The notes below the pieces were generated by a model that searched no databases, was not told the DNA's origin, and saw nothing but the letters and a program-made list of their open reading frames with translations. This document shows positions 6,774-26,913 of a stretch of 64,000 nt of DNA, in pieces. The first letter of the stretch is position 1. The number at the start of each line of letters is the position of its first letter. Origin of the DNA: the human T2T-CHM13v2.0 reference genome, Homo sapiens; assembly GCF_009914755.1 (NCBI RefSeq), contig NC_060947.1; one strand, written 5' to 3'. The position numbers and the translations under genes are program-made.

Positions 6774-8352
6774 CAATGTTATTCTTATCAAACTACCAAT
6801 AACATTCTTTATAGAAGTAGTAAAAAAACTATTAATTCAACATTGAACCAAAAAGAGCTTGAACAGCCAAGACAATTTTAAGCAAAAAGAACAAAACAGG
6901 AAGCATCATGTTACCTGACTTCAAACTATGTGACAGGACTATGGTAAGCAAAAGAACATGGATACTCGTACAAAAACAGACACATAGACCAACGGAACAG
7001 AATATAGAGCTTAGAAATAAGGCCGCATACCTACAACCATCTAATTGTCAATAAAATTGACTTTATAAAACAACAATGGAGAAAAGATTCCCTATTCAAT
7101 AAATAGTGCTGGGATAACTGGCTAACCATATGCAGAAGATTGAAACTGGACGCCTTCCTTATACCATATACAAAAATCAACTAAAGATAGATTAAAGACC
7201 TACATGTTAAACCCAAAACTATAAATCCCTGGAAGACAACCTAGGCAACACCATTCAGGACATATAAACAAGCAAGGATTTTAAGACAAAGATTCCAAAA
7301 GTAATTGCAACAAAAGCAGAAATGACAAATAGGTTCTAATTAAACGAAAGAACTTCTGTACAGCAAAAACAAACAAACAAACAAACAAACAAAAACCAAT
7401 GAGTAGAAGAAACAGATGACCAACAGAATGGGAGAAAATTTTTGCAATCTATACATCTGAAAAATGTCTAATATCCACCATCTATAAGGAATTTAGACAA
7501 ATTCACAAGAAAGAAACCAACAACCTCATTAAACAGTGGACAAAGGACTTGAACACTTTTTTAAAGAAGACATACATGTGGCCAAAGAAGCATATGAAAG
7601 AAACTCAATATCACTAATCATTAGAGAGTTGCAAATCAAAACCACAATGAGATACCATCTCACACCAGTCAGAATGGCTATTACTAAAATATCAAAAAAT
7701 AACAGATGCTTGTGAGGTTGCAGAGAAAAGGGAATGCTTATACACCATTGGTGGGAGTGTAAATCAGTTCAACCCTTGTGGAAGACAATGTGGTGATTCC
7801 TCAAGGACATAAAGACAGAAATACCATTTGACCCAGCCCATTACTGGATATATATCCAAAGGAATAGAAATTGTTCTGTCATAGGGACACATGCACACAT
7901 ATGTTGATTGCAGCACTATTCACAAAAGCAAAGAAGTGGATTAAATCTAAATGCTAATCAATGGTAGACTGGATAAAGAAAATGTAGTACTTATATACCC
8001 TGGAATACTATGCAGCCAAAAAAAAGAGTGAGTTCATGTCCCTTGCAGGAACATGGATGAAGCTGGAGGCCATTATCCTCAGAAAACTTATGCAGTAACA
8101 GAAAACCAAACACTACATGTTCTCCCTTATAAGTGGAAGCTAAATGGTGAGAACACATGGACACAGAGAGAGGAACAACAGACACTGGTGCATACCTGAT
8201 CGGGGAGGATGGGAGAAGGCAGAGGATCAGATAAAATAACTACTTGGTACTAGTATTAATACCTGGATAACAAAGTAATCTGTACAACCAATATGAGTTT
8301 ACCTATATAACAAACCTGTGCATGTACCACTGAACCTAAAATAAAAGTTTTT
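6774..8352 (+). mobile_element. older L1PA (L1PA13-15-like) ORF2 C-terminus and 3'UTR
   Basis: ORF2 3' sequence; 3'UTR ends ...acaaacctgtgcatgtaccactgaacctaaaataaaagtt; (AAAC)n at ~7367-7395. Confidence 0.9.
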
Positions 8353-8360
8353 CTAAGAAT

Positions 8361-8445
8361 GAATATTTTGTTCCTAATGTGGAACCCGTAACTATATAGT
8401 CTTAGGGACATCATATCACTTTTCCTGGCCTCATCTATTAAACAC
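8361..8445 (+). mobile_element. MIR 3' half (5' half is at 28669-28715 on the minus strand)
   Basis: gttcctaatg...actatatagtcttagggacatcatatcacttttcctggcctcatctattaaa resembles the MIR core. Confidence 0.5.
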
Positions 8446-8570
8446 CATTACACATCTATTCATATCAAACATTATAGAATGTTATGAATGTGAATTATTT
8501 CCCATTAGGTAAAGATTTTGGAGTTCTTATAAAGAAAGGGAGGAGATATATAAGAACAAAAACTACTTTT

Positions 8571-8889
8571 ATTGTATTTATACTTTTAATTTTGTTTCAA
8601 GACAGGGTCTTGCTCTGTTATCCACGCTGGAGTTCAGTGGTACATTAGTAGCTCACTGCAATGTCAAGCTCCTGGGCTCTCAGCAGTACTTCCACTACTT
8701 CCACCTCAGCTCCACAAGTAGTTAGGACTATACTCATGCACCACCATGCGTGGCTATTCTTTTTTTACTTTTTGTAGATATAGGGTCTTGCCTTTTGTAG
8801 AGGCTTGTCTTAAATGTGAGCCTCAAGCAAACCTCCCATCTTGGCCTCCCTAGTGCTGGGATTACAGAAGTGAGGCATCGTGTTTGGCC
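8571..8889 (-). mobile_element. AluJ
   Basis: Antisense Alu; TSD aagaacaaaaactactttt (8552-8570) / aagaacaaggactactttt (8892-8910). Confidence 0.9.
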
Positions 8890-9216
8890 CCAAGAACAAG
8901 GACTACTTTTAAAATAACATGAGAGAAAAAATAAAACAGCCTGACAAAGCTTTAGTTGAAAATCGAATTTTTATAAATTCTATTCTTCTATTTTTCTGAA
9001 CTTCTATAACATTTCTCATCATAATTTGTAATGGGAGGGAGCATTATTGAGAGAATGAAAAAACACCTGTGTGACTAGTGCTCAGAAAAAAAGAAAGTAT
9101 GTATAAAAGACAAGGCTGGAGAAATAGAGAGGGATAAATCAAACAAGGGGTTGGGAGCCATGCTAAAGATATTGTTCTTTAGCCTAAGACACAATTGGAA
9201 GTAATTGGGAAGTTTG

Positions 9217-9525
9217 GTTTTTTTTTTTTTTCTTTTTTTTTTTGAGATGGAGTCTCACTCTGTCGCCAGACTGGAGTGCAGTGACCCGATCTCGGCTCAC
9301 TGCAACCTCCGCCTCCCAGGTTCAAGTGATTCCCCCGCCTCAGCCTCCTGAGTACCTAAGATTGCAGGCGTGTACCACCACACACAGCTTAATTTTTGTA
9401 ATTTTAGTAGAGACAGGGTTTCACCATCTTGGTCAGGCTGGTCTCAAACTGCTGACCTCAAGTGATCCGCCTGCCTCGGCCTCCCAAAGTGCTGGGATTA
9501 TAGGCATGAGCCACCGCGCTTGGCC
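9217..9525 (-). mobile_element. AluS (Sx-like)
   Basis: Full antisense Alu with poly-T; TSD taattgggaagtttg / taattgagaagtttg. Confidence 0.95.
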
Positions 9526-24150: not shown

Positions 24151-24505
24151 TGCCTTAATTTCAGAATTAAGTTCCTGTGTCCAAGAACTTATCCATTTCT
24201 TCTAGATTTTCTAGTTTATTTGCATAGAGGTGTTTATAGTATTCTCTGATGGTAGTTTGTATTCTGTGGGATCAGTGGTGATATCCCTTTTATCATTTTT
24301 TATTGTGTCTATTTGATTCTTCCCTCTTTTCTTTTTTATTAGTCTGGCTAGAAGTCTATATATTTAAAAAAAAAAAACAGCTCCTGGATTCATTGATTTT
24401 TTTGAAGGGCCTTTCATGTCTCTATATCTCCTTCAGTTCTGCTCTGATCTTAGTTATTTCTTTTCTTCTGCTAGCTTTTGCATTTGTTTTCTCTTGCTTC
24501 TCTAG

Positions 24506-25177
24506 TTATTTTAATTGTGATGTTAGGGTGTCGATTTTAGATCTTTCCTGCTTTCTCCCATGGGCATTTAATGCTATAAATTTCCCTCTAAACACTGCTT
24601 TAGCTGTGTCCCAGAGATTCAGGTACTTTGTGTCTTTGTTCTTATTGGTTTTAAATAACTTATTTATTTCTGCCTTAAGTTTATTATCTATCCAGTAGTC
24701 CAGGAGCAGATTGTTCCATTTCCATGTAGTTGTGTGGTTTTGAGTGAATTTCTTAATCCTGAGTTCTAATTTGATTGCACTGTGGTATAAGAGACTGTTT
24801 GTTATGATTTCCACTGTTTTGTATTTGCTGAGGAGTGTTTTACTTTCAGTTATGTGGTCAATTTTAGAATAAGTGTGACATGGTGCTGAGAAGGATGTAT
24901 ATTCTATTGATTTAGGGTGGAGAGTTCTGTAGATGTCTATTAAGTCCACTTGGTCCAGAATTGAGTTCAAGTCCTGAATATCCTTTTTAATTTTCTGTCT
25001 CCTTGATCTGTCTAATATTGACAGTGGGGTGTTAAAGTCTCCCACTGTTATTGTGTGGGAGTCTAAGTCTCTTTGTAGGTCTCTAAGAACTTGCTTTATG
25101 AATCTGGGCACTCCTGTATTGGGTGCATATATGTTTAGGATAGTTAGCTCTTCTTGTTGCATTGATCCCTTTACCAT
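24506..25177 (-). pseudogene. L1 ORF2p APE-endonuclease remnant (223 aa open stretch)
   Basis: [26 protein letters not shown] motif altered to LYH; disabled element. Confidence 0.85.
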
Positions 25178-25419
25178 TATGTAAAGGCCTTCTTTGTCTT
25201 TTATAATCTTTGTTGGTTTAAAGTCTGTTTAATCAGAGACTAGGATTGCAACCTCTGCTTTTTAAATTTAATTTTATCTATTTATTTATTTATTTATTTA
25301 TTTATTGCTTTCCGTTTGCTTGGTACATCTTTCTCCATCCCTTTATTTCGAGCCTATGTGTGTCTTTGCATGTGAGATGGGTCTCCTGAATACAGCACAC
25401 TAACAGGTCTTGACTCTTT

Positions 25420-25719
25420 TTTTTTTTTTTTTTTTCTTGAGATGGAGTCTCACTCTGCTGCCCAGGCTGGAGTGCAGTGGCATGATCTCGGCTCACTGCA
25501 AGCTCTGCCTCCCGGCTTCATGCCATTCTTCTGCCTCAGCCTCCTGAGTAGCTGGGACTACAGGCGCCCACCACCACGCCCGGCTAATTTTTTGTATTTT
25601 TAGTAGAGACGGGGTTTCACCATGTTAGCCAGGATGGTTTTGATCTCCTGACCTCGTGATCTGCCCGCCCCGGCCTCCCAAAGTGCTGGGATTACAGGCG
25701 TAAGCCACCGTGCCTGGCC
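25420..25719 (-). mobile_element. AluY inside L1PA7
   Basis: AluY-type gcaagctc, ccattct, tgttagccaggatgg; TSD ggtcttgactcttt (25406-25419 / 25723-25736). Confidence 0.95.
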
Positions 25720-26354
25720 AAGGGTCTTGACTCTTTATTCAATTTGCCAGTCTGTGTCTTTTAATTGGGGCATTTAGCCAATCTACATTTAAGATTAATA
25801 TTGTTATGTGTGAATTTGATCCTGTCTTTATGATGCTAGCTGGCTATTTTGCCCATTAGTTGATACAGTTTCTTCATAGTGTTGATGGTCTTTATAATTT
25901 GGTATGTTTTTGCAGTGATGGGTACTGGTTTTTCCTTTCCATATTTAGTACTTCCTTCAGGAGCTCCTGTAAGGCAGGCCTGGTGGTAACAAAATCTCTC
26001 AGCATTTGCTTGTCTTTAAAGGATTTTATTTCTCCTGTTTGCCTGGATCACCAGTGGAGGCTGCAAAACAGCAAAGATCACTGTCTGTTCCTTCCTCTGG
26101 AAGTTTCGTCCCAGAGGGGCCCCTGCCAGTTGCCTGCCAGAGCTCTCCTGTATGAGATGTCTGTTGACTCCTGCTTGGAGGTGTCTCCCAGTCAGGAGGC
26201 ATGGGAGTCAGGGACCCACTTGAGGAGGCAGTCTGTCCCTTAGCAGAGCTCGAGTGCTTTGCTTGGAAATCCTCTGCTGTCTTCAGAGCCAGCAGGCAGA
26301 AACCTTTAAGTCTGCTGAAGCTGTGCCCACAGCTGCCCCTTCCCCCAGGTGCTC

Positions 26355-26913
26355 TGTGTCATCTCTTACTTATTTCAGCAGTGTTTTGTAATTCTCACTT
26401 TAGAGATATTTCACCTCTCTGGTTAGCTGTATGCCTAGGCATTTTATTATTATTTATTTATTTATTTATTTATTTATTTGGTAATTGTGAATGGGATTAT
26501 GTTCCTGATTTGGCTCTTGGTTTGGTTGTAGGTATATAGAAATGCTAGTGATTTTCATACATTGATTCTGTATCATAAAATTTTGCTGATGTTGCTTACC
26601 TGCTCAAGGAGCTATTGGACAGAAACTATGGGGTTTCTAGACATAGATTCATACCATCCACAAACAGGGATATTTTGACTTCCTCCCTTCCTATTTGGAG
26701 ACCCTTTATTTCCTTCTCTTGCCTGATTGCTCTGGTCAGGTCTTCCAATATTACATTGACTAGGAGTGGCGAGAGAGGGCATCCTTGACTTGTGCTAGTT
26801 TTCAAGAGGAATGCTTCCAGCTTTTGTCCATTCAGTATGATGTTGGTTGTAGATCTGTCATAGATGGCTCTTATTATTTTCACGTATGTTCCTTCAATAC
26901 CTAGTTTTCTGAG
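26355..26913 (-). mobile_element. older L1PA (13-15-like) ORF2 RT segment; its 3' part is at 6774-8352
   Basis: ORF 26626..26928 ([17 protein letters not shown]). Confidence 0.88.

What the first reader, a model, noticed from the sequence alone, without database searches (positions are those of the whole stretch)
6774..26357. ~19.6-kb inversion with both breakpoints readable at base level
Seen: the plus-strand L1PA7-type 5'UTR stops at 6773 (...gataaaactcccaactccc) and fuses to ORF2 of an older L1 (caatgttattcttatc...). At 26357 the same 5'UTR resumes on the minus strand (acagagcacctgggggaagggg...), fused to minus-strand ORF2 of an older L1 (tgtgtcatctc...). From my recall of the consensus (ctccc-tggg-acagagcacc), the 5'UTR halves are only ~4 bp apart. 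An intact in-window homologue (16161-16260) shows the older-L1 halves are 86 bp apart. The joined parts are non-homologous, with only 1-3 bp microhomology (tgt at 26355-26357). Inference: reversing 6774-26357 restores both L1s and puts the L1M at 21010-21950 back in the orientation of the L1M at 2840-5930. This points to end-joining, not L1-L1 homologous recombination, and it happened after the L1PA7 insertion (roughly 30 Myr).
Basis: partly seen in the sequence, partly recalled or inferred. Interest (0 to 1): 0.85.

Follow-up and report, generated by a model that had tools for sequence, protein, structure and literature searches.

The report
Ancient 19.6-kb inversion on human X
A 19.6-kb stretch of gene-poor human X-chromosome DNA was flipped long ago by two breaks that were rejoined without homology, cutting two old LINE-1 repeats in half; it is a clean but ordinary fossil of a common kind of rearrangement.

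Summary
The plus-strand L1PA7-like 5'UTR ends at 6773 and resumes on the minus strand at 26357. In 6 of 6 intact genomic copies the two halves lie 4 bp apart. The older L1 ORF2 halves (6774 onward, plus; 26358 onward, minus) lie 86-91 bp apart in 8 of the 9 genomic copies that carry both, and 87 bp apart in 2 in-window copies. After in-silico reversal of 6774-26357, single alignments span both junctions. Breakpoints sit at non-homologous L1 positions, with 0 and 3 bp of microhomology. This fits joining without homology, not L1-L1 recombination.

New points:
- The window is in the X-transposed region. The Y paralogue (98-99% identical) carries junction 1 unchanged, so the inversion predates the X-to-Y transposition. 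Y lost junction 2 in a 1,387-bp deletion.
- The older L1 is itself a twin-primed (5'-inverted) insertion.
- Reversal does not restore the L1PA7-like copy. It stops at an extra junction (~24152-24175) against a convergent L1 fragment, which implies a further deletion or rearrangement.
- The L1M halves regain a common orientation but stay ~1 kb apart in L1 coordinates.

No outgroup genome was available, so polarity and date rest on the repeat logic. This is an ordinary, apparently unreported member of a known class.

The parts
5925..6773 (+). L1PA7-like 5'UTR, first part (ruler 548-1384); its 5' end abuts an L1M at ~5932
   Evidence: 89-91% identical to the 38 scored hits other than the window's own locus and its Y paralogue (99%)
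6773..6774 (.). Junction 1: L1PA7-like 5'UTR joined to older-L1 ORF2; no microhomology; identical over 60 bp in the Y paralogue
6774..26357 (.). The inverted segment (19,584 bp)
   Evidence: after in-silico reversal single alignments span both ends
6774..8347 (+). Older L1, distal part of its 3' segment (ruler 5455-6821 and on to the 3' end near 8347)
21017..21903 (-). L1M ORF2 piece (ruler 5434-4557); co-oriented on reversal with the L1M at 5614-5932(+) (ruler 3197-3535), but about 1 kb apart in coordinates
21950..22111 (+). First ~160 bp of a ~350-bp dispersed repeat (MaLR/MLT1-like by recall only), cut off where the L1 fragment starts; second half not found in the window
22112..24151 (+). 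L1 fragment (ruler 4116-6144) lacking both ends, convergent with the L1PA7-like body
24152..24175 (.). Extra junction (J2): ruler 6144 of the plus-strand L1 fragment meets ruler 4298 of the minus-strand L1PA7-like body, with about 18 bp unassigned; shared by the Y paralogue
24170..26357 (-). L1PA7-like body: ruler 4298-3080 (24170-25419), Alu (25432-25709), ruler 3094-2781 (25722-26036), ruler 1714-1389 (26034-26357). Ruler 1715-2780 (end of the 5'UTR plus ORF1) is missing
26357..26358 (.). Junction 2 of the inversion (J3): L1PA7-like 5'UTR (minus) joined to older-L1 ORF2 (minus); 3-bp microhomology at 26355-26357; absent from Y through a 1,387-bp deletion
26358..26913 (-). Older L1, proximal part of its 3' segment (ruler 5368-4843)
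26914..28668 (+). Older L1, 5'-inverted (twin-priming) segment, ruler 3438 to ~4843, interrupted by an Alu at 28253 to ~28577
   Evidence: its far end and the start of the 3' segment coincide within 0-8 bp in 3 of 3 intact relatives

Best explanation
A fixed, ancient paracentric micro-inversion of 19,584 bp in the gene-poor Xq21.3 X-transposed region.

Inferred state before the event. A plus-strand L1PA7-like element had inserted into an L1M. About 19.6 kb to its right lay a minus-strand older L1, itself a twin-primed (5'-inverted) insertion.

The event. One break fell in the L1PA7-like 5'UTR, about 840 bp into the element. The other fell in ORF2 of the older L1. The ends lost 4 bp and about 87 bp. 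The intervening segment was religated in reverse, without homology (0 bp and 3 bp of microhomology). This is classical or alternative end joining of two double-strand breaks.

Timing. It happened after the L1PA7-like insertion and before the X-to-Y transposition, because the Y copy carries junction 1.

A separate junction at ~24152-24175 records a further loss, most simply a deletion of about 4.8 kb between the L1PA7-like copy and a convergent L1 fragment. No gene lies within 100 kb, so the inversion is most likely neutral.

Shown: the reciprocal junctions, the spacings, the lack of homology and the sharing with Y.
Inferred: polarity, the break-and-join chemistry, the date bounds and the nature of the extra junction.
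For: - Both split elements become continuous on reversal.
- The L1PA7-like halves are 4 bp apart in 6 of 6 intact copies, and in 2 further loci common to the hit lists.
- The older-L1 halves are 86-91 bp apart in 8 of the 9 genomic copies holding both (10 examined), and 87 bp apart in 2 in-window copies.
- The halves match in age class. L1PA7-like: best non-paralogous identities 89-91% against 88-90%. Older L1: 75.3, 73.5 and 75.3% to the ruler.
- Break positions are non-homologous (ruler 1384/1389 against 5368/5455), with 0 and 3 bp of microhomology.
- The twin-priming anatomy explains why 26914-28668 is on the plus strand.
- The Y paralogue (C24:5672766-5707378) is collinear and 97.7-99.3% identical. 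It has junction 1 identical over 60 bp and J2 at 117 of 120. Two independent assemblies therefore agree.
- The transposition is dated to around 6 Myr in PMC3752934 (passages read).
Against: - No outgroup primate sequence could be searched, so polarity rests on the assumption that each L1 inserted as one piece.
- Junction 2 (26357|26358) is seen in only one assembly, because Y has deleted X 25627-27013.
- The target-site duplication that would independently tie the two ends of the older L1 together is only a weak candidate. It matches 12 of 14 bases (8361-8374 against the reverse complement of 28670-28683). 82 of 500 shuffles score as high, and the direct-orientation control scores higher.
- The L1PA7-like copy has lost its 3' end, so its duplication cannot be checked.
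- End joining cannot be told from replicative template switching on junction sequence alone.
- The extra junction J2 shows that the locus suffered more than one simple event.
Confidence: 0.8

Rival explanations
1. One complex multi-break or replicative event (FoSTeS/MMBIR-like template switching, or a three- to four-break rejoining) produced the inversion junctions and the extra junction J2 together. This includes the 176-178-bp inverted overlap between 22112-22289 and 24176-24351 and the loss of 2-5 kb.
For: - Three non-homologous junctions lie within 19.6 kb.
- The two L1 arms at J2 overlap by only 176-178 bp in L1 coordinates. A staggered or templated breakpoint would give this naturally.
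- J2 is at least as old as the X-to-Y transposition, as junction 1 is.
- PMC6748972 (passage read) notes that inversions with small deletions or insertions may arise in a single FoSTeS/MMBIR event.
Against: - The arms at J2 share no rare variant in any of 176 columns against a 21-copy panel. They are no closer to each other (159 of 176) than to unrelated copies: 86.9-92.6% for one arm and 90.9-95.5% for the other. Nothing therefore marks them as copies of one element.
- Junction 1 has no microhomology, and no templated insertion is seen at either inversion junction.
- Two independent simple events explain everything.
Confidence: 0.13
2. Retrotransposon recombination-mediated inversion: homologous recombination between the two oppositely oriented L1s.
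For: Before the event the two L1s were in inverted orientation, one at each breakpoint. This is the arrangement described for L1-mediated inversions, which are often longer than 10 kb (PMC2603318, passages read).
Against: - The breakpoints are about 4 kb apart in L1 coordinates: 5'UTR at 1384/1389 against ORF2 at 5368/5455.
- The products are not collinear chimeric L1s.
- Sequence was lost at both junctions, and only 0-3 bp are shared.
- The two elements are only about 73-75% alike where they do overlap.
Confidence: 0.02
3. Breaks made by L1 ORF2p endonuclease during retrotransposition attempts, with reciprocal exchange of the ends.
For: A preprint (10.1101/2024.12.14.628481; abstract and passages read) shows that L1 activity can generate intrachromosomal inversions by end joining of L1-induced breaks. 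The window is rich in L1 insertions of similar age.
Against: - Neither junction holds a poly(A) or any newly reverse-transcribed sequence.
- The reciprocal breakpoints show losses (4 and ~87 bp), not target-site-like duplications.
- I saw no T-rich/A-rich endonuclease-type site next to the L1PA7 break, by reading. The motif itself is recalled.
Confidence: 0.04
4. No inversion: chance juxtaposition of unrelated L1 fragments, or an assembly error.
For: About half of the first 30 kb is L1-derived by my map, so L1-L1 contacts are common.
Against: - Both junctions fit to 4 bp and about 87 bp with matching orientation and age class.
- Junction 1 and the overall order are reproduced in the independently assembled Y paralogue.
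Confidence: 0.01

Closest known systems
Human and primate inversions made by non-homologous mechanisms ('NH' inversions, as classed in PMC6748972)
   Same: No inverted repeat spans the breakpoints at homologous positions. There are small losses in the derived allele and 0-3 bp of microhomology. The size of 19.6 kb lies within the 83 bp to 415 kb range reported there.
   Different: This one appears fixed and is older than the X-to-Y transposition, not a polymorphism. Both breakpoints happen to fall inside L1s. A third odd junction lies inside the inverted segment.
Retrotransposon recombination-mediated inversion (RRMI; PMC2603318)
   Same: Two L1s in inverted orientation, one at each breakpoint, and a size typical of L1-associated inversions.
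   Different: The breakpoints are at non-homologous L1 positions, and the junction products are not collinear chimeric elements. It looks like RRMI at first glance but does not work like it.
L1 twin priming (5'-inverted L1 insertions; abstract of PMC2837659 seen in a search listing; the original description is recalled, not read)
   Same: The older L1 shows the canonical form. An inverted 5' segment (26914-28668) sits next to the 3' segment, and their coordinates abut within 0-8 bp.
   Different: Twin priming explains the junction at 26913|26914 only. It cannot explain 6773|6774 and 26357|26358, where two different elements are exchanged reciprocally across 19.6 kb.
Yp inversion that split the X-transposed block on the Y (mentioned in PMC3752934; its LINE-LINE recombination origin is recalled, not read)
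   Same: An inversion in the same X-Y homologous block, with L1s at the breakpoints.
   Different: That event is Y-specific, megabase-scale and later than the transposition. This one is 19.6 kb, predates the transposition and is present on both X and Y copies.

Membership tests
Inversion by non-homologous end joining | Reciprocal junctions: each side joins one half of element A to one half of element B, and both become continuous on reversal | tested here: met
   single alignments span both junctions after reversal; spacings of 4 bp and 86-91 bp in intact copies.
Inversion by non-homologous end joining | No extended homology at the breakpoints; at most a few bp of microhomology | tested here: met
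   0 bp at 6773|6774 and 3 bp at 26355-26357. The ruler positions are about 4 kb apart.
Inversion by non-homologous end joining | Small deletions or insertions at the breakpoints in the derived allele | tested here: met
   4 bp lost from the L1PA7-like element and about 87 bp from the older L1.
Inversion by non-homologous end joining | Ancestral (uninverted) orientation present in outgroup species | not testable with these tools
   No primate genome other than the window's own assembly can be searched. The only comparator is the Y paralogue, which carries the derived state.
Retrotransposon recombination-mediated inversion (RRMI) | Two elements of one family in inverted orientation spanning both breakpoints | tested here: met
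   Before the event there was a plus-strand L1PA7-like element and a minus-strand older-L1 3' segment.
Retrotransposon recombination-mediated inversion (RRMI) | Crossover at homologous positions, giving chimeric elements collinear with the consensus (front of one, back of the other) | tested here: not met
   The junctions join ruler 1384 to 5455 and 1389 to 5368.
L1 twin priming (for the older L1) | Inverted 5' segment directly upstream of the sense 3' segment, with the far end of the inverted segment abutting the start of the 3' segment in L1 coordinates | tested here: met
   in 3 of 3 intact relatives the segment ending at 28666-28668 maps to 872-874. The segment starting at 26913-26922 maps to 866-877.
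L1 twin priming (for the older L1) | Target-site duplication flanking the whole insertion (here expected in inverted orientation, because of the inversion) | tested here: inconclusive
   a 12-of-14 match of 8361-8374 to the reverse complement of 28670-28683, placed correctly at the 5' boundary. But 82 of 500 shuffles score as high.
L1-endonuclease-induced reciprocal inversion | Poly(A)/reverse-transcribed insert or target-site-like duplication at the reciprocal breakpoints | tested here: not met
   direct joins, with losses rather than duplications.
X-transposed region (Xq21.3/Yp11.2 block) | A Y-chromosome paralogue about 98-99% identical and collinear | tested here: met
   C24:5672766-5707378, 97.7-99.3% identical over X 1-36000.

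The most novel reading that the evidence does not exclude
The inversion junctions and the odd junction at ~24152-24175 are products of one germline multi-break or template-switching event. This event would comprise the inversion, the 2-5 kb loss and the 176-178-bp inverted overlap. It struck a cluster of oppositely oriented L1s and was fixed on the ancestral X before the X-to-Y transposition. If it fell in the short interval between the human-chimpanzee split and the transposition, it would be a hominin-specific marker inside the X-transposed region.
Probability: 0.12. Interest if true: 0.35.

Novelty: new member of a known kind. Interest (0 to 1): 0.22.

Why it matters
It is a tidy textbook example. 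Two interrupted repeats give base-level breakpoints and a polarity without any outgroup. A human-specific X-to-Y duplicate gives a minimum age. It also shows that inverted L1s at both breakpoints need not mean L1-L1 recombination.

Beyond that it matters little. No gene or annotated element lies within 100 kb, the mechanism is a known one, and many such lineage-fixed small inversions are expected in primate genome alignments. Its practical uses are two. It can serve as a phylogenetic and structural marker for the distal X-transposed region. It also cautions repeat annotators that this locus holds nested events: twin priming, an inversion, and deletions on both X and Y.

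Tried and rejected
- Twin priming as the cause of the main junctions. Rejected: two different elements are exchanged across 19.6 kb. It does explain 26913|26914.
- The L1 pieces at 39895-41202 and 43205-44565 as the missing 3' part of the L1PA7-like copy. 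Rejected: 43211-44600 is a self-contained twin-primed insertion with its own 15-bp target duplication. Piece 39895-41202 starts 230 bp beyond the break and has its own flanks.
- Search for the 3' copy of the target-site duplication matching the L1PA7-like copy's 5' flank (5885-5936). Only chance-level 9-14-bp hits were found.
- Target duplication of the older L1. A candidate was found but it is not significant.
- Same-copy origin of the two arms at J2. No support: 0 shared rare variants in 176 columns.
- Second half of the ~350-bp repeat at 21950-22111. Not found anywhere in the window using 8 genomic relatives as probes.
- Print search. Four full-text searches were answered and none listed a paper on this inversion. 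A coordinate-string search of the two held supplementary files of the ape sex-chromosome paper (PMC11168930) gave only unrelated interval lists. In PMC6748972 12 of its 14 held supplementary files were searched, and only 2 of the 7 chrX polymorphic inversions were displayed (at 6.1 and 45.4 Mb). The other five were not read. These searches cannot show that the event is unreported, and supplements I could not see may list it.
- Subfamily assignment (L1PA7 or a neighbouring subfamily). Not possible without a repeat library. I give only identities to nearest copies.

Full report
**Setting.** The window is G000:C23:91326001-91390000, that is T2T-CHM13 chrX. The hub table lists no gene in the window or within 100 kb of it. 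The whole assembly could be searched, but no other primate genome was available. No repeat library was available either. I therefore used natural L1 copies from the same genome as rulers. The main ruler is L013 reverse-complemented (C12:97864501-97872500). It is an uninterrupted L1PA7-like copy occupying ruler 548 to ~7024. Its 326-aa open frame at ruler 1787-2764 matches Pfam Transposase_22 (E = 1.3e-53) and Tnp_22_trimer, so it is ORF1.

**The observation.** The quoted letters are at the stated places. Against the ruler:

| Window | Strand | Ruler | Identity |
|---|---|---|---|
| 5925-6772 | + | 548-1384 | 85.6% |
| 6774-8174 | + | 5455-6821 | 75.3% |
| 26034-26357 | - | 1714-1389 | 86.5% |
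| 26355-26906 | - | 5368-4843 | 73.5% |

**Spacing of the L1PA7-like halves.** One search scored 40 of 2,670 candidate matches to 6374-6773. I examined the eight that were given loci. Two are the window itself and its Y paralogue. In the other six (L003-L008) the first half ends and the second half begins exactly 4 bp apart, 6 of 6. The alignment shows the missing 4 bp as TGGG in 4 of the 6, with variants in the other two. Two more loci occur in both top-40 lists (C6:107.58 Mb and C23:31.07 Mb) and also show a 4-bp spacing. The best non-paralogous identities are 89-91% for the first half and 88-90% for the second, so the halves are of the same age class.

**Spacing of the older-L1 halves.**
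- Two in-window homologues place the halves 87 bp apart: 16169-16255 and 23370-23456.
- Among the ten closest genomic copies (L027-L036; 81-83% identical), nine hold both halves in one orientation.
- Eight of those nine give 86-91 bp. One gives 65 bp, but only by extrapolating an alignment that stops 121 nt short. One copy lacks that half.
- The alignment shows where each half stops.

**Junction detail.**
- At 6773|6774 there is no shared base.
- At 26355-26357 three bases (TGT on the plus strand) could belong to either element.
- No filler or templated insert is visible at either junction.

**Reversal test.** I reverse-complemented 6774-26357 inside a script and printed coordinates only.
- In the present sequence each junction is flanked by two separate alignments.
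- After reversal, one alignment runs across the first junction (ruler 548-1714, 1,179 columns, 85.6%).
- One alignment runs across the second (ruler 6821-4843, 2,035 columns). The same holds with two closer relatives of the older L1, L032 and L029.
- By my own estimate (no call), two unrelated fragment pairs fitting this well by chance is of order 1e-5.

**The older L1 is twin-primed.** To the right of 26913 the same older L1 continues on the plus strand: 26914-28251 = ruler 3438-4772. An Alu follows at 28253 to ~28577, and then the L1 runs on to 28668. In three intact relatives the end at 28666-28668 maps to 872-874. The start of the minus-strand piece at 26913-26922 maps to 866-877. The far end of the plus-strand piece therefore abuts the start of the minus-strand piece. 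This is the signature of a 5'-inverted, twin-primed insertion.
- Before the inversion the element was a minus-strand L1 with its 5' third flipped.
- This matters because otherwise the three pieces (plus, minus, plus) would suggest a more complex history.
- The expected target duplication, now in inverted orientation, has only a weak candidate: 12 of 14 bases, correctly placed at the 5' boundary. But 82 of 500 shuffles score as high, and the direct-orientation control scores higher.

**Reversal does not restore the L1PA7-like copy.** Following it leftward from 26357:
- It lacks ruler 1715-2780, the end of the 5'UTR plus ORF1. The loss sits at 26034-26036.
- It carries an Alu at 25432-25709.
- It stops at ruler 4298, at ~24170.

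There it meets a plus-strand L1 fragment, 22112-24151 = ruler 4116-6144. About 18 bp between them are unassigned. Both L1s lack their 3' ends and point at each other. Twin priming cannot give this arrangement, because it yields diverging arms, not converging ones.

**What the extra junction (J2) may be.**
- The two arms overlap by 176-178 bp in L1 coordinates.
- In that overlap they are 159 of 176 identical. This is no closer than either arm is to a panel of 21 unrelated copies: 86.9-92.6% for one arm and 90.9-95.5% for the other.
- They share no rare variant in any of 176 columns. One arm has 11 private differences and the other 5.
- Left of the fragment, 21950-22111 is the first half of a ~350-bp dispersed repeat. 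Its second half is absent from the window. I call it MaLR/MLT1-like from recall only.
- The L1M pieces at 5614-5932(+) (ruler 3197-3535) and 21017-21903(-) (ruler 5434-4557) become co-oriented on reversal but are ~1 kb apart.

The simplest reading is that an independent L1 fragment had inserted into that repeat. A deletion of about 4.8 kb then removed five things together:
- the L1PA7-like 3' end;
- ~1 kb of L1M;
- half of the ~350-bp repeat;
- the fragment's 3' end;
- the L1PA7-like copy's 3' target duplication.

A second local inversion with duplication, or a third breakpoint of the same event, remains possible.

**Y paralogue and dating.** X 1-36000 aligns collinearly, on the same strand, with C24:5672766-5707378 at 97.7-99.3% identity. 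The window therefore lies in the X-transposed region.
- Junction 1 is identical over 60 bp in Y, and the extra junction is 117 of 120 identical.
- Y lacks X 25627-27013 (1,387 bp), a plain deletion that removed junction 2 and the twin-priming junction. In agreement, the second 5'UTR half finds no Y match.
- The inversion therefore existed on the X before the transposition, put at around 6 Myr in PMC3752934 (passages read). Other dates that I recall, 3-5 Myr, were not checked.
- The older bound is the L1PA7-like insertion. Nearest-copy identities of 88-91%, calibrated on the local X-Y divergence, suggest a few tens of Myr. The figure of about 31 Myr for L1PA7 is recalled, not checked.

**Mechanism.**
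- Homologous L1-L1 recombination (RRMI; PMC2603318, passages read) requires a crossover at matching positions and yields collinear chimeric elements. Here the positions are about 4 kb apart, so that membership test fails.
- L1-endonuclease-induced reciprocal inversions (preprint 10.1101/2024.12.14.628481, passages read) carry poly(A) or reverse-transcribed inserts, or target-like duplications. None is present here.
- Small losses with 0-3 bp of microhomology match the non-homologous class of human inversions (PMC6748972, passages read). That paper also notes that such cases may arise by template switching, which I cannot exclude.
- About half of the first 30 kb is L1 by my map. Two breakpoints both landing in L1 therefore needs no special explanation.

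**Verdict.** The additions are the twin-primed older L1, the extra junction with further loss, and the X-Y minimum age. It is a real, clean and apparently neutral inversion of a known kind. My searches did not find it in print, but they cannot show that it is unreported. Interest is low.

Noticed in passing
window 43196-44615: A self-contained twin-primed L1. The inverted piece is 43205-43466 (ruler 5945-5682) and the sense piece 43469-44565 (ruler 5951-7024). It has a poly(A) and a 15-bp target duplication, AAGAATTGCAGTCCT, at 43196-43210 and 44601-44615.
   Followed up: partly
window 39846-41202: An L1 fragment (39895-41202, plus, ruler 4528-5870, 86%) without a 3' end. What looks like a minus-strand L1 3' tip with an A-rich tail precedes it at ~39846-39894. 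It is embedded in an older minus-strand L1M. It may be a 5'-inverted insertion with a large internal loss.
   Followed up: no
window 9877-10180, and Y at X 11518-11531: An Alu present on X but not on the Y paralogue (target duplication GAAATATCAATGTTCT, empty site on Y). A ~318-bp Alu present on Y only (duplication AATAATATAAAACA). Both insertions are younger than the X-to-Y transposition.
   Followed up: partly
window 25627-27013 (absent at C24:5698355-5698357): A 1,387-bp Y-specific deletion with at most 1 bp of microhomology. It runs from inside an Alu to inside the older L1 and removes the second inversion junction.
   Followed up: yes
window 26034-26036 and 25432-25709: The L1PA7-like copy lacks ruler 1715-2780 (end of the 5'UTR and all of ORF1). 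It also carries an Alu whose insertion duplicated about 15 bp (ruler 3080-3094).
   Followed up: partly
window 15451-19755: A third older L1 (minus strand, ruler 6175-1829, ~73%) lies wholly inside the inverted segment.
   Followed up: partly
window 26440-26480: A short (TTTA)n-type microsatellite inside the older L1, just right of junction 2.
   Followed up: no
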